Source: an uncultured virus (IMG/VR IMGVR_UViG_3300002026_001292) | Taxonomy: Duplodnaviria > Heunggongvirae > Uroviricota > Caudoviricetes | DNA: 64,000 nt | Direction: 5' to 3' (one strand) | Virus record (IMG/VR): IMGVR_UViG_3300002026_001292 | Part shown: piece after piece, positions 5,813 through 13,218 of the stretch | Numbering within the stretch: position 1 is the first letter of the stretch | How the letters are laid out: every line of letters begins with the position of its first letter | Made by a program: the position numbers and the translations under genes | The notes under the pieces: model-generated | The model's database searches: none | What the model saw: the letters and a program-made list of their open reading frames with translations, nothing else | Told to the model about the DNA's origin: nothing

Positions 5813-6139
5813 ATGAAAATTTTAAAAGTAAGTGAACGAGTTGGCGGAAAAACTCTTAAAGAAAATGGAGTATGTCATCTTGTCGTCATGTATCGAGCTG
5901 TTAATGCAAATGTTCAGTTTTTTAACAATATGGATTACGTTACTTTGAGCAAGAAATTTGCATTAGAACATGCCGAACATATGATGTGGACTGAAGAAGA
6001 AGACCAACACGTAATTCAGGCGATGATAGATCCACAGTATGTAGCTGATGCATCTAATCCTGGAGAATATTTTTATATTGGAAATCAAAAAATAGGTAAG
6101 ACTATAAAAGAATTTAAGTTCGCAGAATATTCTAATTGA
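5813..6139 (+). CDS. hypothetical protein, possible ADP-ribosyltransferase-like fold
   Basis: YRA...YVTLSxxFAxxH...GEY pattern loosely like ART R-S-E elements. Confidence 0.35.
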   Translation: MKILKVSERVGGKTLKENGVCHLVVMYRAVNANVQFFNNMDYVTLSKKFALEHAEHMMWTEEEDQHVIQAMIDPQYVADASNPGEYFYIGNQKIGKTIKEFKFAEYSN

Positions 6140-6148
6140 AAATAAATA

Positions 6149-6177
6149 TTGATTTTTAACTTGATATGTTGTATAAT
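6149..6177 (+). promoter_or_regulatory. sigma70-type promoter for ncRNA 1
   Basis: TTGATT-N17-TATAAT. Confidence 0.7.
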
Positions 6178-6215
6178 AGAAACAGTTCAGGACATGATTT
6201 GATCTTTGAGATTAT

Positions 6216-6352
6216 GGGGATGTAGACAAATGGCAAAGTCACTATTCAATTAAAAAATAGCAAACAGCGATTATTACTTCAATTGTTTAATAGCAATTGC
6301 TCATCTAAACGCTTACAAACTTTTGGGGGTTCGATTCCCTCCTTCCCCACCA
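6216..6352 (+). ncRNA. tRNA-like ncRNA copy 1 with about 60-nt insertion at the variable arm (candidate Y RNA)
   Basis: Acceptor GGGGATG/CTTCCCC+ACCA, D stem GAC/GTC, CTATT/AATAG stem with 9-nt loop, T arm GGGGG-TTCGATT-CCCTC. Confidence 0.75.
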
Positions 6353-6361
6353 CTTTAAAAT

Positions 6362-6676
6362 AAATATTGATTTTTGAAATAATATTTGTATAATGATGAT
6401 ACGAAACGATTTACTTGATCTTTAATAATTTATGGAGAGGACGCCTAACGGTTAGGGCAACTATTATTGGAATAGAAAAACAGCGATTACGTCTTCAATT
6501 GTTTAATAGCAATTGCTTTTTAAACGCTTACAAACATATTAGGTTCGACTCCTAAACTCTCCACCACTTTACAATTTTTAAAAACAAATATTGATTTTTG
6601 AAATAATATTTGTATAATGATGATACGAAACGATTTACTTGATCTTTAATAATTTATGGAGAGGACGCCTAACGGT
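6362..6676 (+). repeat. 91-bp exact direct repeat (promoter + leader + ncRNA 5' end), period 224 bp
   Basis: 6362-6452 identical to 6586-6676; each has TTGATT-N16-TATAAT. Confidence 0.9.
6434..6566 (+). ncRNA. tRNA-like ncRNA copy 2
   Basis: GGAGAG/CTCTCC+ACCA, D stem GCC/GGC, CTATT/AATAG with 5-nt loop, same insert, T arm TTAGG-TTCGACT-CCTAA. Confidence 0.75.
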
Positions 6677-6810
6677 GGACGCCTAACGGTAGGGCACTAT
6701 TCAGTTAAAATAGCAAAAAAAATACAGCGATTATGCCTTCAATTGTTTAACCGCAATTGCTTTATGAACGCTTACAAACATATTAGGTTCGACTCCTAAA
6801 CTCTCCACCA
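6658..6810 (+). ncRNA. tRNA-like ncRNA copy 3 (14-nt duplication in D arm)
   Basis: Paralogue of copy 2; GGACGCCTAACGGT present twice (6663-6690). Confidence 0.7.
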
Positions 6811-6839
6811 CTTTTAATTTAGCGTATGAAATATGACGC

Positions 6840-6955
6840 AAGCCGAACCGAATATGCTCCTTGAGATAGTTAATGGGTTAGGCTTAGATAGCGAAGTTAC
6901 AAGGATTAGATGCATATAATTCTTTCAACATGGTCTTAAGTCCAAATGCCTATCT
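6840..6955 (+). ncRNA. possible structured RNA(s) in array
   Basis: Stems AAGCCGAACC/GGTTAGGCTT (6840-6885) and AGATAG/CTATCT (6886-6955); no ORF. Confidence 0.35.
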
Positions 6956-6981
6956 TGAGATTTTTGTTCTTTTTTAATTTA

Positions 6982-7102
6982 AAGCGATCCCTTATGAAGT
7001 ACTTACAAGCAAGTTCATATTGGTTGAACAAATCACTATTAATGATTCGGATCTGGTTCAAATCCAGAGCAAAAAAAATAGTACCGTTAACTTGGATCGC
7101 TT
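6982..7102 (+). ncRNA. Y-RNA-like ncRNA: terminal clamp enclosing tRNA D/anticodon/T arms without an acceptor stem
   Basis: AAGCGATCC/GGATCGCTT; GTTCA/TGAAC; AATCA-CTATTAA-TGATT; TCTGG-TTCAAAT-CCAGA. Confidence 0.7.
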
Positions 7103-7127
7103 AACTTTTTCTTGTTCTTTATAATTT

Positions 7128-7255
7128 TGACTTGTGGTCTACGAATAATAACCGAGATGTTTGTAGATGAAGCCTTCAATTGCTGCTAAAAGCGATAAAA
7201 CACTTTCTCAGGTTTTGCAGGAGTCGGCGTAGAGTAGACATTCTCTACCAAGTCA
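7128..7255 (+). ncRNA. rod-like structured ncRNA
   Basis: Nested stems TGACTTG/CAAGTCA, GTCTAC/GTAGAC, AACC/GGTT, GAGA/TCTC, TGTTT/AAACA; carries the CTTCAATTG motif of copies 1-3. Confidence 0.55.
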
Positions 7256-7265
7256 TTTCATTTTA

Positions 7266-7401
7266 CCAACAATCCCTTATTCAGTGCTTACACGCGAATA
7301 TAGCTCATTAGGTTAGAGCATTATCCTTCCAAGATAAACGTAGGCGGTTCAAATCCGTCTATTTGCACCAAAAATAAAGCATTTACAACTTGGATTGTTG
7401 G
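7266..7401 (+). ncRNA. Y-RNA-like clamp RNA enclosing a full tRNA-Gly
   Basis: CCAACAATCC/GGATTGTTGG; flanks paralogous to 6982-7102. Confidence 0.7.
7294..7370 (+). tRNA. tRNA-Gly(TCC)
   Basis: Cloverleaf: GCGAATA/TATTTGC, TTATC-CTTCCAA-GATAA, TTCAAAT loop, encoded CCA; discriminator A. Confidence 0.85.
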
Positions 7402-7410
7402 AACTTTTTA

Positions 7411-7442
7411 AAAAGCGTATTATTAATTTAATACGCTTTTTT
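7411..7442 (+). terminator. intrinsic terminator closing the ncRNA array
   Basis: AAAAGCGTATTA/TAATACGCTTTT + T-run. Confidence 0.8.
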
Positions 7443-7507
7443 GTTTTTATCTTGATTATTTGACTGAATGGAGTATAATATTAAAAATAGAAATAGAAAG
7501 GATTTAT

Positions 7508-8116
7508 ATGGAAACAAAAATAGAAAACTTTTTGATTTGTGGTATTGGAGCGGCAGGGGCAAATATCTTCATGAACTTGCTATATGCCTACCCTAATGCA
7601 ACTTTCACTGTCGTTGATTTTGATAAAGTTGAAGATAGAAATGTCAGCCCAGGAACTCAACCTTATACCAAAGCTGATATCAACAGACCAAAAACACAAG
7701 CTTTGCAAAGAATCGCTCAAATGTTAAAGCAAAAAAGAATTGATGCAGCGAATATAAAAATTGCATCGAAGTTAGATATAACAGATAGAGTTAAAGACCC
7801 AAAAACAACATTGATAATTGATGCTTTCGATAATGCTGAATCTAGGAATCTATTTTTAGAATTACCGAAGAAGTATAATGTATTGCATGTTGGATTTAGT
7901 GCCTTATTGAGTGGGGAAGCGGCTTGGAATGAGATTTATGAACCAATGACTAAATCAAAGTCTGATGGTGAGATTGACGTTTGCGAAATGTCTATAGCTC
8001 GCCCTTTCATTATGTCATTAACTGGTATGGCATCTATCGTTATTGCTAATTTCATTGAGAGTGGCAAGAAAATTAATATGTATTTTGATAAGCATTTGAA
8101 TGTTAAGAAGTTCTAA
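7508..8116 (+). CDS. ThiF/MoeB family E1-like adenylyltransferase
   Basis: GIGAAG nucleotide-binding loop, DFDKVEDRN, K, IIDAFDN, candidate catalytic Cys in DVCE; start moved to ATG 7508 after AAAGGA; own promoter 7452-7479. Confidence 0.9.
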   Translation: METKIENFLICGIGAAGANIFMNLLYAYPNATFTVVDFDKVEDRNVSPGTQPYTKADINRPKTQALQRIAQMLKQKRIDAANIKIASKLDITDRVKDPKTTLIIDAFDNAESRNLFLELPKKYNVLHVGFSALLSGEAAWNEIYEPMTKSKSDGEIDVCEMSIARPFIMSLTGMASIVIANFIESGKKINMYFDKHLNVKKF

Positions 8117-8129
8117 AGAAAGGATTAAT

Positions 8130-8546
8130 ATGCATTATGGATATTTAGAAGAAGGAGATAAGTGTCCAGAAAAAGATTGTAAAGGTAGATTGGAATATCC
8201 CCACCCCAAGAATTGTTCATGTCATATAAGTCCTCCGTGTCACGCATGTCCTTCTGTTGTTTTGACTTGTAATGAATGCGGATGGGAAGATAATTCTGAA
8301 GATGAAAAATATATTTCAACAGAATATGAAGGATTGTTTGAAAGAATAATTAAGCCACAACCATTGGATAATACAAAAGTTAGTTATAGATGTGAAGGAC
8401 ACACCAATTCTTCTATGATAAAGAAGGGTGTTTATCCTGAACATATGAGTATGGAAGATGTTCGAAAAGAGGTTGATGGAACATTTGGTGGAAGATTTGA
8501 GTACTTTAAAGATGGGAAGTTTAAATTTATAGCATACACTGATTGA
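8130..8546 (+). CDS. Cys-rich zinc-binding protein
   Basis: CP..C, CSCHISPPCHAC, CNECGW. Confidence 0.7.
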   Translation: MHYGYLEEGDKCPEKDCKGRLEYPHPKNCSCHISPPCHACPSVVLTCNECGWEDNSEDEKYISTEYEGLFERIIKPQPLDNTKVSYRCEGHTNSSMIKKGVYPEHMSMEDVRKEVDGTFGGRFEYFKDGKFKFIAYTD

Positions 8547-8817
8547 AAGGATAATTATGAAAATTAATACACAAGAATGGCTTGACGAAGGAGCTTCAAG
8601 ATTTTTAGGTAAAACGGTATTCTTTTTAGATCCCATTGGTTTGCCGTGTAAAGGCGTCGTATCTAATTATGATGCTAGCCAGTTGTTCGTCGGAAGGAAT
8701 CGCAGCTTGATTTACGGAAAATCTGAATTCTTTTTTTCAATAGAAGAATTGTGCCAGTGGATTAAAGATAATGTTAGAGAAGCATAATACACTGATTGAA
8801 AGGATAATTATGAAAAT
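8534..8817 (+). repeat. 31-bp exact direct repeat flanking a small gene
   Basis: ATACACTGATTGAAAGGATAATTATGAAAAT at 8534-8564 and 8787-8817. Confidence 0.9.
8557..8787 (+). CDS. hypothetical protein
   Basis: RBS and ATG inside the direct repeat. Confidence 0.6.
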   Translation: MKINTQEWLDEGASRFLGKTVFFLDPIGLPCKGVVSNYDASQLFVGRNRSLIYGKSEFFFSIEELCQWIKDNVREA

Positions 8818-9055
8818 GCGAAAAACAAAGAAATGGTTAAAATCTAAGTTTGAATTAATTATCGGTAATATTTTGAGAAAGTTTGGATATTACAAATGCG
8901 ACTATGGCTGTTCATGCGGCAGACATTGGATTTCAATAGACGGTAAAACTATTGCACAAACAAGCGGCGATGATGTTTGGTTAAGAGATGAGGACGTGCA
9001 TAAACTTGGATATATTTGTTTTGATCAGGGAAAACATTGGGATAAGCCAGATTGA
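8810..9055 (+). CDS. hypothetical protein (Cys-containing)
   Basis: Start reassigned to ATG after GAAAGGA. Confidence 0.55.
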   Translation: MKMRKTKKWLKSKFELIIGNILRKFGYYKCDYGCSCGRHWISIDGKTIAQTSGDDVWLRDEDVHKLGYICFDQGKHWDKPD

Positions 9056-9066
9056 AAGGTAAAATT

Positions 9067-9849
9067 ATGAGCGATTTAGATATAAGTTCTATAGAAACAT
9101 ATAATCGAAGAATGTCCACAAGTCTAATCGATAAGATATTTTTCTTAGATAAGGTCAATGTCAAAAACTTTTTAGATTTCGGATGTGCCAATGGAGAATT
9201 ACTATCTTTTATAGTTACTATTGTTGATGGTGACGTGCATCTAATGGGATATGACAAAGACCCTGAAATGATAAAACTAGCCAAAAACAGATTGGGTGGT
9301 ATAAAAGGAGTTACTTTAAGCGACTCATTGGAGAAATTCGAACAAGGCGACTTTAGCGAAACTTGTTTGGTTTTAAGTTCCGTACTGCATGAGATTTATC
9401 ATTATGGAACGCCAAAAGATATAGAAGATTTTTGGGAAATGGTTTGGAAGTCGAATTTCAAGAATATTGTCATTAGAGATACAATTCCCTCATCGACTAT
9501 TGAAAGGTTATCTCACGTAAATGATATCCGTTCAGTTATGACTCATGATTTATTACATAGAGGTCTGTTAAGAGACTTTGAGGATAATTTCGGCAGTATA
9601 GCGAGTAATAAGAACTTAATCCATTTATTGCTTAAATATCAATATATAGAGCCAAATTGGAAGCGAGAAGTCAAGGAGAACTATTTTCCTATATATTATG
9701 AGAATTTACTTAGGTTAATTCCGTCTAAATATGAAACTATATACAGCAATCATTATGTGTTGCCTTATTTTTATCGTCATATAAAGCATGAGTTCGGGAT
9801 AACAATAAAAGACAATACGCATTTGCAATTGATACTTGAAAGGACATAA
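9067..9849 (+). CDS. class I SAM-dependent methyltransferase
   Basis: FLDFGCANG motif I, GYD, SSVLHE. Confidence 0.85.
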   Translation: MSDLDISSIETYNRRMSTSLIDKIFFLDKVNVKNFLDFGCANGELLSFIVTIVDGDVHLMGYDKDPEMIKLAKNRLGGIKGVTLSDSLEKFEQGDFSETCLVLSSVLHEIYHYGTPKDIEDFWEMVWKSNFKNIVIRDTIPSSTIERLSHVNDIRSVMTHDLLHRGLLRDFEDNFGSIASNKNLIHLLLKYQYIEPNWKREVKENYFPIYYENLLRLIPSKYETIYSNHYVLPYFYRHIKHEFGITIKDNTHLQLILERT

Positions 9850-9870
9850 TTCCTATTCCAAAATTGTAAA

Positions 9871-9897
9871 AGGAATCTATTTGCCTTTTCACGAATT
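9871..9897 (+). promoter_or_regulatory. SigH-type promoter
   Basis: AGGA-N18-GAATT. Confidence 0.65.
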
Positions 9898-9934
9898 ATT
9901 AATCTGTTCGATTTTTAACTAAAATTGGGGATAG

Positions 9935-10705
9935 ATGAAAATAGTAAAAGCATCAAGTAATAAAATTATCAATATGTCATCTGCTAAAAATGAGCTGGAA
10001 ATGGGCGTTAAGGTAGAAAAAGAGCATAAAGATATTTATGACGATTTGAAAAAGAAATTCGGAGAAAAATTCCCATGGACATTAGACGAATTCTATAAAA
10101 AAATCGCTATGGCTCATTTAGATGAATTTAAAGACTACTATACAAAGCTTAAAAAAATGGAAGAGGAGGCTAATAAAAATATGAAAAATACAGCATCAGG
10201 TAAACAAACAATTAAACTTTCAAGACAACAATGGGAAAATATTGGTCAGAAAGCAGGATGGATGAAAACCGCACAATTTGGCAATGGAATGGAAACTGTT
10301 GAAATAGGTAGCACTCCTAATGATGAACCTTGTGCCCAAGTTGGATCTGATAACTATAGACAATTAGCACAAATGGAAATAAAAGCATTTGCAAAACAAT
10401 GCGAAAGGATGTTCCCGAATAAGCCGCAAGGAGCTAGATTCGTAGTAACCAATAATCCACACGATTTTGGTACTTATTATGAGCTAGGAGTAAAATTTAG
10501 AACGGACGATGAAGAATCTGAAAATTATGCTTATGAAGTTCAAAACGGTATGCCTTCTAATTGGGATGATCAAGCTAGAGCGGAGTTGGAACAGCAAGGG
10601 TATTTTCAACAGTTAAACGCTAACAGAAAGAAAGATGATTATGAAATACCAGGTTTTGAAGGTACGAATGACGCTCTCAATAATTTAGGAATACGGGGAA
10701 GATGA
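9935..10705 (+). CDS. multi-module phage protein (GxxVExEH...AxxHLxExxDYY domain + KxASG..W..IG.KAGW motif + C-terminal domain)
   Basis: Motifs visible in translation; function unknown. Confidence 0.65.
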   Translation: MKIVKASSNKIINMSSAKNELEMGVKVEKEHKDIYDDLKKKFGEKFPWTLDEFYKKIAMAHLDEFKDYYTKLKKMEEEANKNMKNTASGKQTIKLSRQQWENIGQKAGWMKTAQFGNGMETVEIGSTPNDEPCAQVGSDNYRQLAQMEIKAFAKQCERMFPNKPQGARFVVTNNPHDFGTYYELGVKFRTDDEESENYAYEVQNGMPSNWDDQARAELEQQGYFQQLNANRKKDDYEIPGFEGTNDALNNLGIRGR

Positions 10706-10800
10706 AAATAGTAAAAACAGCTAGCGGAAAGCAAAATATAAGATTAAGTAGAAGCGAATGGAAATCTATTGGAGATAAAGCTGGTTGGAAAAATTATTAA
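10702..10800 (+). CDS. 32-aa peptide MKIVKTASGKQNIRLSRSEWKSIGDKAGWKNY (not in ORF track)
   Basis: ATGA-coupled to the upstream gene; near-copy of its internal motif. Confidence 0.65.
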   Translation: MKIVKTASGKQNIRLSRSEWKSIGDKAGWKNY

Positions 10801-10809
10801 AAATAATTC

Positions 10810-10837
10810 TTGATTTTATAGAGGGATTATGTATAAT
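10810..10837 (+). promoter_or_regulatory. sigma70-type promoter for the attenuated tRNA operon
   Basis: TTGATT-N16-TATAAT. Confidence 0.75.
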
Positions 10838-10882
10838 GATTAAGAACATTAAATAGATTTGGATTTGGAAAGGAATAAAATT

Positions 10883-10960
10883 ATGTACTATAAAACAAAA
10901 ACAGTAAAAACCGTTAAGGTAGTCAAAACGACTGCTACGGGCTTATTCTGTTTTGTTTAA
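10883..10960 (+). CDS. attenuator leader peptide MYYKTKTVKTVKVVKTTATGLFCFV (not in ORF track)
   Basis: GAAAGGA RBS; residues 2-17 are exclusively Y/K/T/V; overlaps the antiterminator arm. Confidence 0.8.
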   Translation: MYYKTKTVKTVKVVKTTATGLFCFV

Positions 10961-11014
10961 GTACAAAATAGATTTTTAAAAGCCCGTAGTTAAAATTTAA
11001 CTACGGGCTTTTTT
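10935..11014 (+). terminator. attenuator: terminator 10978-11014 with competing antiterminator arm 10935-10944
   Basis: AAAAGCCCGTAGTTAA/TTAACTACGGGCTTTTTT; CTACGGGCTT also present inside the leader ORF. Confidence 0.85.
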
Positions 11015-11026
11015 GTTGGAGAAAAT

Positions 11027-11104
11027 GGGCGATTGGCTCAGCGGCAACAGCGCTTGCTTTACACGCAAGTATTATCGGGGGTTCGAGTCCCTCATCGCCC
11101 ACCA
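11027..11104 (+). tRNA. tRNA-Val(TAC)
   Basis: GGGCGAT/ATCGCCC, CTTGC-TTTACAC-GCAAG, TTCGAGT, ACCA. Confidence 0.93.
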
Positions 11105-11129
11105 ATTTTAGAAAGAAAAAGGAGTCGTA

Positions 11130-11312
11130 ATGGAAAAATTAAATATAGATACTAAGATACATGAAGCTTTAGGAATGACTATAATAACGAAAGAAGATGT
11201 CCGTGGTAGAAGATTGCCACCAGCCGTAGAAATATGGCCGAAAGAAGATTCATTTAATCCATCGGGAATCTCTTTGGAAGAAGCTGAAGAAGCAATGAGG
11301 AAAATGTTATGA
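11130..11312 (+). CDS. small hypothetical protein
   Basis: AAGGAG RBS; coupled to next gene. Confidence 0.55.
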   Translation: MEKLNIDTKIHEALGMTIITKEDVRGRRLPPAVEIWPKEDSFNPSGISLEEAEEAMRKML

Positions 11313-12001
11313 AAAGACCATTGGTAGTAGGATATAAGGGCGAAATAGGATCATTTATATTGAATGGACTATTGAGAATAATGCCTAAAGCTCTAGACAT
11401 ATGGTGCATTGATATAAATGAGACTAAGGAAGAAGTAGAACACCGTATAAAGATGTCTGATGTTATATTCCTATGTGTCCCTTTGCAAATGACAGCGGAT
11501 TGGTTAGTAGAGCACAAAGACTTACTAAGGGATAAGATGGTAATTGAGCAAGGTTCTTTGAAAGAATGGATATATGAGGACAAAAGGCTAGAAGGATTAA
11601 ATCTAGTGTCTATGCATATATTGTTTAGACCATCTCAAACGCCAAATCTTGAAGATAGAAAAGTTGGATTTTTGGAAGGACAGTTTGATGATAATTTAGT
11701 CAAAGATATTGCTAGCATAACGCAGTCTCAAGTGGTATGGTATGACAGTTTGCAAGAACATGATATGGAAATGGCAATTCAGCAGGCTTTAACGCATAGG
11801 ATGTTATTGGTTTTAGGAGATAAATTAAAGAAGTGTAATGGGTCAACATATATTGGGAAAAAGGTTATTGAACTTTCAGATAGGATAAGGAAGGGTGATC
11901 TGAAACTATATAGGTCGATTCAGAGTAATAAGTATTTAAACAAACATTTAGAGGAAACAGAAAAACAATTAATGGATTTTGATATTGATAACTATTTTTA
12001 G
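11309..12001 (+). CDS. prephenate dehydrogenase (TyrA)-like protein
   Basis: GxxGxIG Rossmann, DVIFLCVP, GSLK, HILFRP (cf. HPMFGP), EHDxxMAxxQALTH. Confidence 0.8.
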   Translation: MKRPLVVGYKGEIGSFILNGLLRIMPKALDIWCIDINETKEEVEHRIKMSDVIFLCVPLQMTADWLVEHKDLLRDKMVIEQGSLKEWIYEDKRLEGLNLVSMHILFRPSQTPNLEDRKVGFLEGQFDDNLVKDIASITQSQVVWYDSLQEHDMEMAIQQALTHRMLLVLGDKLKKCNGSTYIGKKVIELSDRIRKGDLKLYRSIQSNKYLNKHLEETEKQLMDFDIDNYF

Positions 12002-12009
12002 GATTTAAC

Positions 12010-12083
12010 GCCGGTATGGCAGAAGGGTTATGCATCTTACTTGTAATAAGAACTATGGGGTTTCGATACCTCTGCCGGCTCCA
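12010..12083 (+). tRNA. tRNA-Thr(TGT), atypical T arm
   Basis: GCCGGTA/TGCCGGC, TCTTA-CTTGTAA-TAAGA, TCCA end; T loop appears 6 nt. Confidence 0.82.
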
Positions 12084-12098
12084 TTTTTAGAGAATAAC

Positions 12099-12272
12099 AT
12101 GAATATAAAAAACGATATAGATCTTGATACTGCACTTGAACATATAAATGACAATTGGTATCTATTGGATGTAACCGATGATGCCGATTCTGAATTAGTT
12201 ACTAAACGTGACAATCTTCTTAAATTGATTTATGATGTTGAAGAGTACGAGAAGAAATATGTTTTTGATTAA
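12099..12272 (+). CDS. small acidic hypothetical protein
   Basis: Start moved downstream of tRNA-Thr. Confidence 0.5.
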   Translation: MNIKNDIDLDTALEHINDNWYLLDVTDDADSELVTKRDNLLKLIYDVEEYEKKYVFD

Positions 12273-12292
12273 TGTAAAAGACATAAGTGTAT

Positions 12293-12367
12293 GGGTTGCA
12301 AGCTTTTATGGAGAAGCAACAGACTTTTAATCTGTGGATCGGAGTTCAAGTCTCCGGCGACCTACCA
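12293..12367 (+). tRNA. tRNA-Lys(TTT)
   Basis: GGGTTGC/GCGACCT, ACAGA-CTTTTAA-TCTGT, CGGAG-TTCAAGT-CTCCG, ACCA. Confidence 0.9.
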
Positions 12368-12438
12368 TCTTTTTTATCTTGATTTTTTATCCCCTTAATG
12401 TATAATGTAACATCGATTAGAATAATAGAAAGGAAATT

Positions 12439-13218
12439 ATGAAATTGAAGTTTTTAGGAGTTGGTGGGGCTTTTTGCGATTCAAATCAGTATCAGTCTAA
12501 TTGTGCAATTGAGATAGATGATAAATTGTTTTTAATTGATTGCGGGTCAGACATTCGATTCTCTTTGAAAGAAAAATATCCTCATATCAATAATGGCAAT
12601 ATATCCGATTATGTGAAGTGGGTTTATATTTCTCATTTGCATGGGGATCATTGTCATGGATTGGAATGGTTAGGATATTGTACTTACTTTAATGCATCAG
12701 CCAGTAAGCCTATTTTAATTGGAGATAGTAATGTCATTCATTCGTTATGGGATTATACACTGAAAGGCACAATGGGCGATGTAAAAGGCAAAGAGTTAAA
12801 TTTAAATGATTTCTTCCAAGTTGTTCAAGATATTTCTAGTGATTGTGAATTTAAAGTAAATGCAAATATTTCATTTACACCAGTTGAATCCCCTCATGTT
12901 GATCCTTATAAAAAATCATATGGGCTATTTATTGAGACCGAAAAGAGAAAAACATATTATACTTCAGATGTTAATGACGATAATATGGTTGTCAATAAAA
13001 AATATTATGAAGCTGCCGATATTATATTTCATGATTGTGAAACATATGCTTTTCATTCTGGTGTACATGCTCATTATGAATCGCTTAAGAATTTACCATA
13101 TGAGATAAAGAGGAAAATTTGGTTGTATCATTATAGTGGTGATGCATTTGATAAATACGATCCAGTTTTTGATGGTTTTAGCGGATTTTGCAAAAAAGGA
13201 TATGGGTTTGAAATATGA
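12439..13218 (+). CDS. MBL-fold metallo-hydrolase (Apyc1-like/RNase Z-like phosphodiesterase)
   Basis: LGVGGAF, LIDCGSD, SHLHGDH, HDC, VHA, LYHY; own promoter 12379-12406. Confidence 0.85.
   Translation: MKLKFLGVGGAFCDSNQYQSNCAIEIDDKLFLIDCGSDIRFSLKEKYPHINNGNISDYVKWVYISHLHGDHCHGLEWLGYCTYFNASASKPILIGDSNVIHSLWDYTLKGTMGDVKGKELNLNDFFQVVQDISSDCEFKVNANISFTPVESPHVDPYKKSYGLFIETEKRKTYYTSDVNDDNMVVNKKYYEAADIIFHDCETYAFHSGVHAHYESLKNLPYEIKRKIWLYHYSGDAFDKYDPVFDGFSGFCKKGYGFEI

What the first reader, a model, noticed from the sequence alone, without database searches (positions are those of the whole stretch)
10810..12367. Leader-peptide attenuator whose codons match the tRNAs and enzyme it controls
Seen: promoter, RBS, then the 25-aa ORF MYYKTKTVKTVKVVKTTATGLFCFV, then a strong terminator. 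CTACGGGCTT in the distal leader (10935-10944) duplicates the terminator 3' arm and can pair with its 5' arm, helped by an inner stem CTGTTTTGT/ACAAAATAG. Downstream are exactly tRNA-Val(TAC), tRNA-Thr(TGT), tRNA-Lys(TTT) and a TyrA-like enzyme, matching V, T, K and YY; the early codons are AAA/ACA/GTA. Known: trp/thr/ilv-type attenuation. Inference: ribosome stalling from lack of charged or intact tRNA-Lys/Thr/Val/Tyr (starvation or host anticodon nucleases) frees the antiterminator and switches on replacement tRNAs. I do not recall attenuation of phage tRNA genes being described.
Basis: partly seen in the sequence, partly recalled or inferred. Interest (0 to 1): 0.92.

Follow-up and report, generated by a model that had tools for sequence, protein, structure and literature searches.

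The report
Leader-peptide switch gating phage tRNA genes
An uncultured phage puts three of its tRNA genes behind a tiny test gene spelled in the codons those tRNAs read, followed by a switchable transcription stop, so it probably makes them only when ribosomes read those codons slowly.

Summary
The order is: promoter (10810-10837), ribosome-binding site, 25-codon ORF (10883-10960), strong terminator (10978-11015), then tRNA-Val(UAC), a TyrA-like gene, tRNA-Thr(UGU) and tRNA-Lys(UUU). Folding gives a trp-type set of alternatives: a protector hairpin of about -28 kcal/mol (by subtraction), an antiterminator of -26.7 with the stop codon in its apical loop, and a terminator of -22.2.

Among relatives fetched through the TyrA-like gene, 19 distinct modules share this layout, and their leader residues follow the downstream tRNAs:
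- YFYF leaders precede Tyr/Phe tRNAs.
- A QQNNNQQNQN leader precedes Gln/Asn.
- LNSLLSSLSW precedes Leu/Ser/Trp.
- VKKVKVVVV precedes Val/Lys.
- An I/K/V/G leader precedes Ile/Lys/Val/Gly.

For eight class representatives, the true pairing is the single best of 40,320 permutations. The leader 3' ends also co-vary with their own terminator arms (0 of 20,000 permutations).

Stalling-dependent readthrough is inferred, not shown; no RNA data exist. Eight literature searches found no description of this control for tRNA genes. This scan's earlier notes report the same kind of element on other phage DNA, so it is recurrent in the scan but apparently unpublished.

Verdict: a real attenuator (confidence about 0.8) and a new variant of a known mechanism.

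The parts
10810..10837 (+). Promoter TTGATT-16 nt-TATAAT, preceded by TG
   Evidence: Same type as the promoters at 6149, 6367, 6591, 7452 and 12379.
10868..10875 (+). Ribosome-binding site GGAAAGGA, 7 nt before the ATG
   Evidence: A similar AAAGGAAT lies before the leader ATG in L019 and L066.
10883..10960 (+). Leader ORF, 25 codons plus stop: MYYKTKTVKTVKVVKTTATGLFCFV
   Evidence: Homologous 3' half in L019, L066 and L027.
10892..10933 (+). Sensor block: 14 consecutive Lys/Thr/Val codons. The first six (AAA ACA AAA ACA GTA AAA) are exact complements of the three downstream anticodons.
10884..10965 (+). Protector hairpin (region 1:2): 10884-10924 pairs with 10930-10965
   Evidence: full-length MFE -50.1 kcal/mol, z -7.8. 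A similar 1:2 hairpin appears in the full-length folds of most of the 19 modules (my reading, not counted).
10934..10990 (+). Antiterminator (region 2:3): 10934-10945 pairs with 10974 and 10980-10990; inner stem 10947-10956 with 10963-10972. The stop codon lies in the apical loop 10957-10962.
   Evidence: -26.7 kcal/mol, z -6.9.
10978..11015 (+). Intrinsic terminator (region 3:4): stem 10978-10993 with 10997-11012, G+C core 10982-10991/10999-11008, six U
   Evidence: -22.2 kcal/mol, z -6.6.
11027..11104 (+). tRNA-Val(UAC), 11 nt after the terminator
   Evidence: (56.8 bits).
11130..11312 (+). 60-aa ORF, no family
11309..12001 (+). TyrA-like (prephenate/arogenate dehydrogenase fold) gene, 230 aa
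   Evidence: PF02153, 25 bits, cut-off 26.5; 2pv7, E 2.5e-5; pLDDT 94.9; top matches are TyrA enzymes, TM 0.69-0.76.
12010..12083 (+). tRNA-Thr(UGU)
12099..12272 (+). 57-aa ORF, no family
12293..12367 (+). tRNA-Lys(UUU), last gene of the unit
12379..12406 (+). Next promoter of the same type; marks the end of the unit

Best explanation
This is a ribosome-mediated (leader-peptide) transcription attenuator that gates a phage operon of three tRNA genes and a TyrA-like gene.

Proposed mechanism (inferred; only the sequence anatomy and the comparative evidence are shown):
1. Transcription starts at the promoter at 10810-10837, and a ribosome translates the 25-codon leader behind RNA polymerase.
2. 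If Lys, Thr and Val codons are decoded fast, the ribosome reaches the stop codon. That codon lies in the apical loop of the antiterminator, so the ribosome covers region 2, the terminator forms, and transcription stops 11 nt before tRNA-Val.
3. If decoding is slow because the matching charged tRNAs are scarce, the ribosome stalls in the sensor block (10892 to about 10920). This melts the protector hairpin but leaves 10934-10945 free to pair with 10980-10990. The antiterminator wins and the tRNA genes are transcribed.
4. Without any translation, the protector hairpin plus the terminator are the most stable state, so the default is off.
5. The products are themselves the tRNAs being sensed, so the circuit should act as a negative-feedback supply controller.

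Relatives keep the same scaffold but rewrite the sensor codons to suit the tRNAs they carry.
For: Anatomy of the window:
- Promoter, ribosome-binding site, ORF, terminator and tRNA lie in order, with no room for a standard promoter between terminator and tRNA-Val.
- There are three mutually exclusive folds. Protector plus terminator gives -50.1 kcal/mol. The antiterminator gives -26.7. The terminator alone gives -22.2. None of 200 shuffles does as well for any of them.
- A 14-codon K/T/V run is expected about 3e-5 times per window.

Comparative evidence:
- A composition-blind script searched all 90 loci then held (the window's own contig and its relatives) for an ATG ORF of 12-45 aa with a ribosome-binding site whose stop lies within 80 nt of a terminator. 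It gave 22 hits: 21 have tRNAs downstream on the same strand, and 20 have leader runs that match them. Three more modules came, and one clear case (L055) was found by eye.
- Examples: L012 YFYYF precedes Tyr, Tyr, Phe, Tyr, Phe. L017 QQNNNQQNQN precedes Gln, Asn. L019b I/K/V/G/T precedes Ile, Lys, Lys, Val, Gly. L049 LNSLLSSLSWLLL precedes Leu, Leu, Ser, Ser, Trp. L040 VKKVKVVVV precedes Val, Lys, Lys, Val. L056 SISLLSSLSSCYL precedes Cys, Tyr, Leu and Ser tRNAs.
- Permutation of leader/tRNA-set pairings: for 18 modules the match is 0.28 against 0.13, reached by 0 of 100,000 permutations. For 8 class representatives the true pairing is the single best of 40,320.
- Matched residues sit in the first 60% of the leaders, 69 of 111 against 25 of 81 in the rest (Fisher p 2e-5).
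- Each leader's 3' end fits its own terminator 5' arm: mean -15.4 against -11.4 kcal/mol, sd 0.67, 0 of 20,000 permutations.
- On the alignment of 10 Tyr/Phe-class modules, the antiterminator has 73% of cells paired against 64% in shuffles (0 of 500). It has 17 of 25 pairs with changes on both sides, and slid controls reach at most 50.5% paired.
- The window's scaffold (GCTACGGGCTT..TCTGT.TTGT plus the GCCCGTAG terminator) is homologous to L019, L066 and L027, which carry other sensor codons.
Against: - There is no experimental or expression evidence. Every step from stalling to readthrough is inferred.
- Not every case fits. In L019a/L023 the first gene after the terminator is tRNA-Asp, yet the leader has no Asp codon; only Ala is matched. 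L069's 42-aa ORF shows no match. L077 has no tRNA.
- Six of the 10 Tyr/Phe-class modules have only tRNA-Phe downstream despite having Tyr codons.
- In the window, 5 of the 16 matched codons (ACC, GTT, GTC, ACT, GTT) cannot be read by the phage anticodons under strict wobble.
- Script-found modules occur in 21 of 46 tRNA-bearing loci. The other 25 showed none, though many are short contigs.
- Modules are related by descent, so there are only about eight truly independent classes.
- The simple MFE-versus-shuffle control for antiterminator pairing was weak for single modules; for the window, 20 of 200 shuffles paired as many arm bases.
- Two weak promoter-like sites could give leader-independent transcription. 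One is TAGATT-16-TAAAAT at 10969-10996, read by eye and not reported. The other is GTGACA-17-TATGAT at 12208-12236 before tRNA-Lys (where hits are at chance level: 44 found against 37.6 expected).
Confidence: 0.8

Rival explanations
1. An ordinary small-protein gene with its own terminator. The 25-aa peptide would be the functional product, and the tRNAs would be made by leaky readthrough or from separate weak promoters. The composition match would be coincidence.
For: The peptide has a hydrophobic tail (GLFCFV), as many small membrane peptides do. Weak promoter-like sites exist at 10969-10996 (by eye) and 12208-12236.
Against: A functional peptide would keep its sequence. Instead the 5' half is rewritten in step with the tRNA cargo, while the 3' half tracks the terminator at nucleotide level. 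The candidate internal promoter is not conserved in L019 or L066 (by eye).
Confidence: 0.05
2. A translation-independent RNA switch. The codon runs in the leader RNA would bind tRNA anticodons, or a protein, directly, as T-box or PyrR-type attenuators do, with no ribosome involved.
For: The best Rfam match is the protein-dependent PyrR attenuator: 42.2 bits against a cut-off of 54, a full-length match. Runs of codons complementary to the encoded anticodons could in principle base-pair with tRNAs.
Against: All Rfam matches are below their gathering scores, and no T-box match appears even at E up to 10. Every module has an in-frame ATG and stop (the script also required a ribosome-binding site), and in the window the stop sits in the antiterminator loop. 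Synonymous codons are mixed; the window uses all four Thr codons and three Val codons.
Confidence: 0.06
3. A general sensor of translation capacity. The attenuator would report whether ribosomes translate at all (for example after host shut-off) rather than the supply of particular tRNAs.
For: Any attenuator with a protector hairpin turns off when translation initiation fails (fold logic).
Against: It does not explain why sensor residues follow the identity of the downstream tRNAs across eight classes, nor why they cluster ahead of the antiterminator arm.
Confidence: 0.06
4. The codon content is a by-product of RNA structure. The A-rich Lys/Thr codons would exist only because they must pair with CUGUUUUGUUU in the protector hairpin.
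For: In the window, 10893-10904 pairs with 10948-10958, so the sequence here is constrained by pairing.
Against: Structure alone cannot predict which tRNA genes follow. The match holds for classes with quite different sequences, including Gln/Asn, Leu/Ser/Trp and Tyr/Phe.
Confidence: 0.03

Closest known systems
Multivalent leader-peptide attenuators of enterobacterial amino-acid operons (thr leader, Rfam RF00506; ilv leaders). Established knowledge, recalled.
   Same: Promoter-proximal short ORF with a run of codons for several amino acids, protector/antiterminator/terminator alternatives, and an intrinsic terminator before the first gene. A full-length though sub-threshold match to Thr_leader.
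   Different: The controlled genes are tRNA genes, not biosynthetic enzymes. The element is in a phage. The score is 29.5 bits against a cut-off of 55, so it is not a member of that Rfam family. The sensor codons are rewritten from relative to relative along with the tRNA cargo.
pheST operon attenuator (Phe-codon leader controlling phenylalanyl-tRNA synthetase). Recalled, not read here.
   Same: Leader-peptide attenuation applied to a component of the decoding machinery rather than to amino-acid synthesis.
   Different: It controls a synthetase, not the tRNA itself, and has one amino-acid specificity in a cellular gene.
pheA leader attenuator (Phe codons controlling an aromatic amino-acid enzyme). 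Recalled.
   Same: The Tyr/Phe-codon leaders of 10 relatives precede a TyrA-like aromatic-pathway enzyme.
   Different: Here the same unit also carries tRNA-Phe/Tyr, and the window's own leader has switched to Lys/Thr/Val.
T-box riboswitches. Established knowledge.
   Same: They sense the supply of a specific tRNA and decide between a terminator and an antiterminator.
   Different: A T-box binds uncharged tRNA directly with one specifier codon and no translation. No T-box match was found here, and there is a translated ORF instead.
Earlier notes of this scan: leader-peptide attenuators gating phage tRNA arrays in other genomes.
   Same: Same logic and layout, according to those notes.
   Different: Different DNA, which I did not examine. 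This window adds a TyrA-like enzyme in the unit and a set of relatives showing one scaffold with swapped sensor codons.

Membership tests
Leader-peptide (ribosome-mediated) transcription attenuators | Short ORF with start codon and ribosome-binding site just after the promoter | tested here: met
Leader-peptide (ribosome-mediated) transcription attenuators | Run of codons that relate to the controlled genes | tested here: met
   14 K/T/V codons ahead of Val/Thr/Lys tRNAs. Co-variation in relatives.
Leader-peptide (ribosome-mediated) transcription attenuators | Intrinsic terminator between the leader and the first controlled gene | tested here: met
Leader-peptide (ribosome-mediated) transcription attenuators | Antiterminator that uses the terminator 5' arm, and whose other arm a ribosome at the stop codon would cover | tested here: met
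   stop codon in the apical loop; co-variation.
Leader-peptide (ribosome-mediated) transcription attenuators | Protector (1:2) hairpin giving termination without translation | tested here: met
   In silico only.
Leader-peptide (ribosome-mediated) transcription attenuators | Readthrough rises when the sensor codons are decoded slowly | not testable with these tools
   Needs reporter or transcript assays. No RNA run was available.
Leader-peptide (ribosome-mediated) transcription attenuators | Controlled genes are amino-acid biosynthesis or synthetase genes (as in all described cases I know) | tested here: not met
   The controlled genes are three tRNAs, two small ORFs and a TyrA-like gene.
Rfam Thr_leader RF00506 / Trp_leader RF00513 / PyrR RF00515 | Score at or above the family's gathering score | tested here: not met
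   29.5 against 55; 14.4 against 41; 42.2 against 54.
T-box riboswitch | Match to the T-box model | tested here: not met
   No T-box row among 71 matches at E up to 10.
TyrA (prephenate/arogenate dehydrogenase), for the 230-aa gene | Pfam PDH_N at or above its cut-off | tested here: inconclusive
   25 bits against 26.5. The profile hits TyrA 2pv7 at E 2.5e-5.
TyrA (prephenate/arogenate dehydrogenase), for the 230-aa gene | TyrA fold | tested here: met
   pLDDT 94.9. Of the 18 listed rows ranked 1-30, all are prephenate dehydrogenases; cyclohexadienyl and arogenate dehydrogenases follow at ranks 36 and 45. TM 0.69-0.76 for the top rows.
TyrA (prephenate/arogenate dehydrogenase), for the 230-aa gene | Enzyme activity on prephenate or arogenate | not testable with these tools
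   His103 is invariant in 28 relatives and aligns with a His of 2pv7. Activity is unknown.

The most novel reading that the evidence does not exclude
Large environmental phages may carry a family of re-programmable, codon-barcoded attenuators: one conserved RNA switch whose sensor codons are rewritten whenever the tRNA cargo changes. This would let the phage measure, codon family by codon family, how well the infected cell decodes, and make only the tRNAs that are short. Shortage could arise because the host never supplied enough of them, or because host defence nucleases that cut tRNA anticodons have destroyed them. In the second case the element would be an inducible counter-defence circuit. 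In relatives, the same switch with Tyr/Phe codons also turns on a TyrA-like enzyme.
Probability: 0.3. Interest if true: 0.92.

Novelty: new variant of a known kind. Interest (0 to 1): 0.85.

Why it matters
Phage tRNA genes are usually discussed as constitutive helpers for codon usage or as decoys against tRNA-cutting defences. How their expression is controlled is largely unknown.

A leader-peptide attenuator in front of them would mean the phage reads decoding speed directly and corrects it with the very molecules being sensed. Classical attenuation is not known to control tRNA genes; I found no paper on this in eight searches.

The idea is directly testable with standard reporter fusions. 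The element also offers a natural set of short, portable sensors for the supply of individual tRNAs. Finally, it shows how a regulatory RNA can be re-targeted simply by rewriting a dozen codons.

Tried and rejected
- **Whole genome:** none is held for this window, and the records behind my loci are not held either. The other 54 kb of the contig and the rest of the relatives' contigs were therefore not examined.
- **Cultured phages:** only tRNA-level DNA matches and no TyrA-like protein, so no laboratory phage can yet be named as a model.
- **Other collections:** no relative in genome contigs. The single-protein scan of viral contigs found nothing. The alignment scan gave 10 loci, of which only L009 has tRNAs and none has a leader.
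- **DNA pattern scans for the window's scaffold:** 0 hits. A second scan gave 11 hits that are unrelated G+C-rich hairpins, because the two halves of my pattern are complementary.
- **Expression:** no RNA holder listed.
- **Contigs of four DNA runs laid on the stretch:** these show only one change in the leader (G10955A) and no compensatory pair.
- **MFE-versus-shuffle control:** it did not discriminate for single modules. I replaced it with cross-pairing permutations.
- **Motif CTTTGA before tRNAs:** present in 8 of 149 upstream regions against a background of 2.7% per 40 nt, which is too weak to interpret.
- **Supplementary files:** I read none. The papers in the search listings were seen as listings and abstract starts only.
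Full report
**What is there**

The window is 34% G+C phage-like DNA. It is the first 64 kb of a 118-kb metagenome contig; L011 is the same DNA. The region between 10810 and 12406 is laid out as follows.
- A promoter, TTGATT-16-TATAAT, lies at 10810-10837. It is one of six near-identical promoters in 6149-12406.
- A ribosome-binding site, GGAAAGGA, lies at 10868-10875.
- A 25-codon ORF runs from 10883 to 10960 and encodes MYYKTKTVKTVKVVKTTATGLFCFV.
- An intrinsic terminator follows, with G+C core 10982-10991/10999-11008 and six U.
- Eleven bases later comes tRNA-Val(UAC) at 11027-11104.
- Then come a 60-aa ORF, a 230-aa TyrA-like gene (11309-12001), tRNA-Thr(UGU) at 12010-12083, a 57-aa ORF and tRNA-Lys(UUU) at 12293-12367.
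- The next promoter of the same type, at 12379, closes the unit.

CTACGGGCTT at 10935-10944 recurs at 11001-11010 and is complementary to 10980-10989.

**Is it more than chance?**

- Lys, Thr and Val together make up 20.6% of residues in the window's long ORFs. A run of 14 such codons is therefore expected about 3e-5 times in all six frames of the window.
- My terminator scan finds only 6 plus-strand and 8 minus-strand terminators in 64 kb. This is the only one preceded by a short ORF of this kind.
- The first six sensor codons (AAA ACA AAA ACA GTA AAA) are exact complements of the three anticodons. However, these are also common codons in this A+T-rich genome: AAA is 64% of Lys codons, ACA 35% of Thr and GTA 32% of Val. 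That detail alone therefore says little.

**Folding**

- The full leader (10883-11016) folds at -50.1 kcal/mol (z -7.8). It forms two hairpins: a protector, in which 10884-10924 pairs with 10930-10965, and the terminator (-22.2, z -6.6).
- Cut before the terminator's 3' arm, the RNA instead forms an antiterminator of -26.7 kcal/mol (z -6.9). Here 10934-10945 pairs with 10974 and 10980-10990, over an inner stem of 10947-10956 with 10963-10972.
- The stop codon (10958-10960) sits in the apical loop of that inner stem.

This is the four-region logic of the trp attenuator, which I cite as established knowledge.
- With no ribosome, the protector and terminator form, so the unit is off.
- With a ribosome at the stop codon, region 2 is covered and the terminator forms, so the unit is off.
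- With a ribosome stalled in the sensor block, the protector is melted but 10934-10945 stays free. The antiterminator forms and the unit is on.

**Relatives**

No cultured phage resembles the region. The TyrA-like protein, however, has 255 relatives at E up to 0.001 among the 380 candidates scored in metagenomes. An alignment of 28 of them fetched 10 viral loci and 80 metagenome loci, one of which (L011) is the window's own contig. ARAGORN finds tRNAs in 46 of these 90 loci, usually right next to the TyrA-like gene.

I then ran a script that ignores composition. It looked for an ATG ORF of 12-45 aa with a ribosome-binding site and a stop within 80 nt upstream of a terminator. It returned 22 hits: 21 have tRNAs downstream on the same strand, and 20 have leader runs that match them. 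A second script, which required an upstream copy of the terminator arm, added L027, L040 and L056. L055 is a further clear case found by eye, and L030 a weak one.

| Locus | Leader | Downstream genes |
|---|---|---|
| L012 | MRNRAYFYYFSK... | Tyr, Tyr, TyrA-like, Phe, Tyr, Phe |
| L041 | ..RAYFYFSES.. | Tyr, Phe |
| L017 | MYINQQNNNQQNQNLNGFW.. | Gln, Asn |
| L019 (second module) | MYIYVITGKVIGKTTVGTVVG.. | Ile, Lys, Lys, Val, Gly |
| L049 | MKTTTLNSLLSSLSWLLLC | Leu, Leu, Ser, Ser, Trp |
| L040 | ..SFVKKVKVVVVGYKK.. | Val, Lys, Lys, Val |
| L056 | ..SISLLSSLSSCYL.. | Cys, Tyr, Tyr, His, several Leu, Ser |
| L055 | ..SVLCLRLLCSLCLSYYYL.. | Cys, five Leu, Tyr |

**Statistics on the match**

- The score for each leader is the fraction of its residues for which a tRNA gene follows, up to the next terminator or 3.5 kb.
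- Over 18 modules the mean is 0.28, against 0.13 for shuffled pairings; 0 of 100,000 shuffles reach it.
- Many modules are related by descent, so I also took one representative for each of eight classes. The true pairing is the single best of all 40,320 permutations.
- Matched residues lie mainly in the first 60% of the leaders (69 of 111) rather than the last 40% (25 of 81; Fisher p 2e-5). This is where a stalled ribosome would leave the antiterminator arm free.

**Statistics on the switch**

- The last 45 nt of each leader ORF pairs better with its own terminator 5' arm than with those of other modules. The mean is -15.4 against -11.4 kcal/mol (sd 0.67), and 0 of 20,000 permutations reach it.
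- I tested the antiterminator on an alignment of the 10 Tyr/Phe-class modules, deriving it from one member. The results, all, are:
  - 73% of cells are paired, against 64% in shuffles (0 of 500 reach it).
  - 17 of 25 pairs have changes on both sides, against 8.7 expected.
  - Versions with the partner slid by 1-3 columns reach at most 50.5% paired.
- That structure came from one of the sequences, which favours it somewhat, as the tool itself warns.
- The full-length folds of most of the 19 modules (my reading, not counted) also show a protector hairpin between the sensor codons and the ORF's 3' part.
- The window's own scaffold is visibly homologous to those of L019, L066 and L027. They share the GCTACGGGCTT..TCTGT.TTGT arm and the GCCCGTAG-type terminator but carry Tyr/Lys/Ala/Phe codons where the window has Lys/Thr/Val. 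The switch is conserved and the sensor is rewritten.

**What does not fit**

- L019a and L023 have tRNA-Asp as the first gene after the terminator, yet there is no Asp codon in the leader. L069's 42-aa ORF and L077 do not match.
- Six of the ten Tyr/Phe-class modules have only tRNA-Phe downstream. The Tyr codons there may relate to the TyrA-like gene, but that is conjecture.
- Five of the window's 16 matched codons cannot be read by the phage's anticodons under strict wobble. The sensor therefore reports on the whole codon family.
- No module was detected in 25 of the 46 tRNA-bearing loci, though many are short contigs.
- Two weak promoter-like sites could give leader-independent transcription. 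One is at 10969-10996 (TAGATT-16-TAAAAT, my reading, not). The other is at 12208-12236, where promoter-like hits are at chance frequency (44 found against 37.6 expected).
- No RNA data exist for this phage.

**The TyrA-like gene**

- Pfam PDH_N scores just below its cut-off, 25 against 26.5 bits.
- A profile of 28 relatives hits only the Haemophilus TyrA structure 2pv7, at E 2.5e-5. That alignment covers an invariant His103.
- The AlphaFold model is confident (pLDDT 94.9). All 18 listed Foldseek matches ranked 1-30 are prephenate dehydrogenases, at TM 0.69-0.76 for the top rows.
- The protein therefore has the TyrA fold. Its activity is unknown.
- In ten relatives it lies behind a Tyr/Phe-codon leader together with tRNA-Phe/Tyr. 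This looks like the older arrangement, and the two Tyr codons at the start of the window's leader may be a remnant of it. That is inference.

**Comparison with what is known**

- Rfam gives only sub-threshold, full-length matches to terminator-type leaders: PyrR 42.2 against 54, trpB 32.5 against 59, Thr_leader 29.5 against 55, Trp_leader 14.4 against 41. There is no T-box match.
- The element works like the multivalent thr and ilv leaders and, in spirit, like the pheST attenuator (recalled knowledge). It differs in controlling tRNA genes, in a phage, with a swappable sensor.
- Eight full-text searches returned nothing on leader-peptide attenuation of tRNA genes. I saw listings and abstract starts only, and journals outside the library are not covered.
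- This scan's own earlier notes describe the same kind of element in at least ten other phage genomes, and also found no paper. Those are unchecked AI notes on other DNA, not independent evidence. They do show that the pattern recurs.

**Verdict**

- The sequence anatomy, the alternative folds and two kinds of co-variation are shown.
- Stalling-dependent readthrough, the trigger (codon-supply mismatch, tRNA cleavage by defence nucleases, or starvation) and the feedback loop are inferred.
- I put 0.8 on a genuine ribosome-mediated attenuator of these tRNA genes. It is a new variant of a known mechanism and of high interest.

Noticed in passing
window 6136-6814: Three tandem units of about 220-244 nt. 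Each has a TTGATT-16-TATAAT promoter followed by a tRNA-like gene of about 135 nt that ends in CCACCA and carries a conserved insertion of about 45-60 nt (ACAGCGATTA..CTTCAATTGTTTAA.AGCAATTGCT). Only 6216-6349 reaches the Rfam tRNA score (36.5 bits), and ARAGORN calls none of them. They have their own promoters and no leader, unlike the Val/Thr/Lys unit. Further T-arm-like pieces lie in 6820-7290, before tRNA-Gly(UCC) at 7294.
   Followed up: partly
window 12439-13218: The gene after the tRNA unit, behind its own promoter at 12379, matches the anti-Pycsar Apyc1 family (PF23023, E 5.7e-16, 59 bits against a cut-off of 50). It is a metallo-beta-lactamase-fold enzyme annotated as degrading cyclic-nucleotide defence signals. 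An anti-defence gene therefore sits next to the regulated tRNAs.
   Followed up: partly
window 11399-11884: Contigs of two DNA runs (X2, X3) carry a near-identical variant that skips 486 nt (162 codons, in frame) inside the TyrA-like gene while keeping the leader and the tRNAs. The same contigs have G10955A in the last leader codon. The enzyme may be dispensable in this lineage.
   Followed up: partly
loci L012-L090: The TyrA-like gene family lives almost only inside the tRNA arrays of uncultured phages, most often beside tRNA-Phe(GAA) and tRNA-Tyr(GTA). There is no relative in cultured phages or in prokaryote genomes.
   Followed up: partly
window 10702-10800: A 32-aa ORF (MKIVKTASGKQNIRLSRSEWKSIGDKAGWKNY) repeats a segment found inside the preceding 256-aa DUF5661 protein (..NTASGKQTIKLSRQQWENIGQKAGWMK..). 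Other contigs diverge at 10735 and 10762-10775.
   Followed up: no
L056 2648-2730 and 3684-3776; L072 982-1064 and 2018-2110: ARAGORN calls a tRNA-His with anticodon ATG and a tRNA of undetermined type with a two-base anticodon '(ga)' within long Leu/Ser tRNA arrays.
   Followed up: no
L016 2231-2374, L017 1974-2117, L018 1905-2048: About 145 nt lie between the Gln/Asn attenuator's terminator and tRNA-Gln. They include a G+C-rich stretch that may be an unrecognised structured RNA or an odd tRNA.
   Followed up: no
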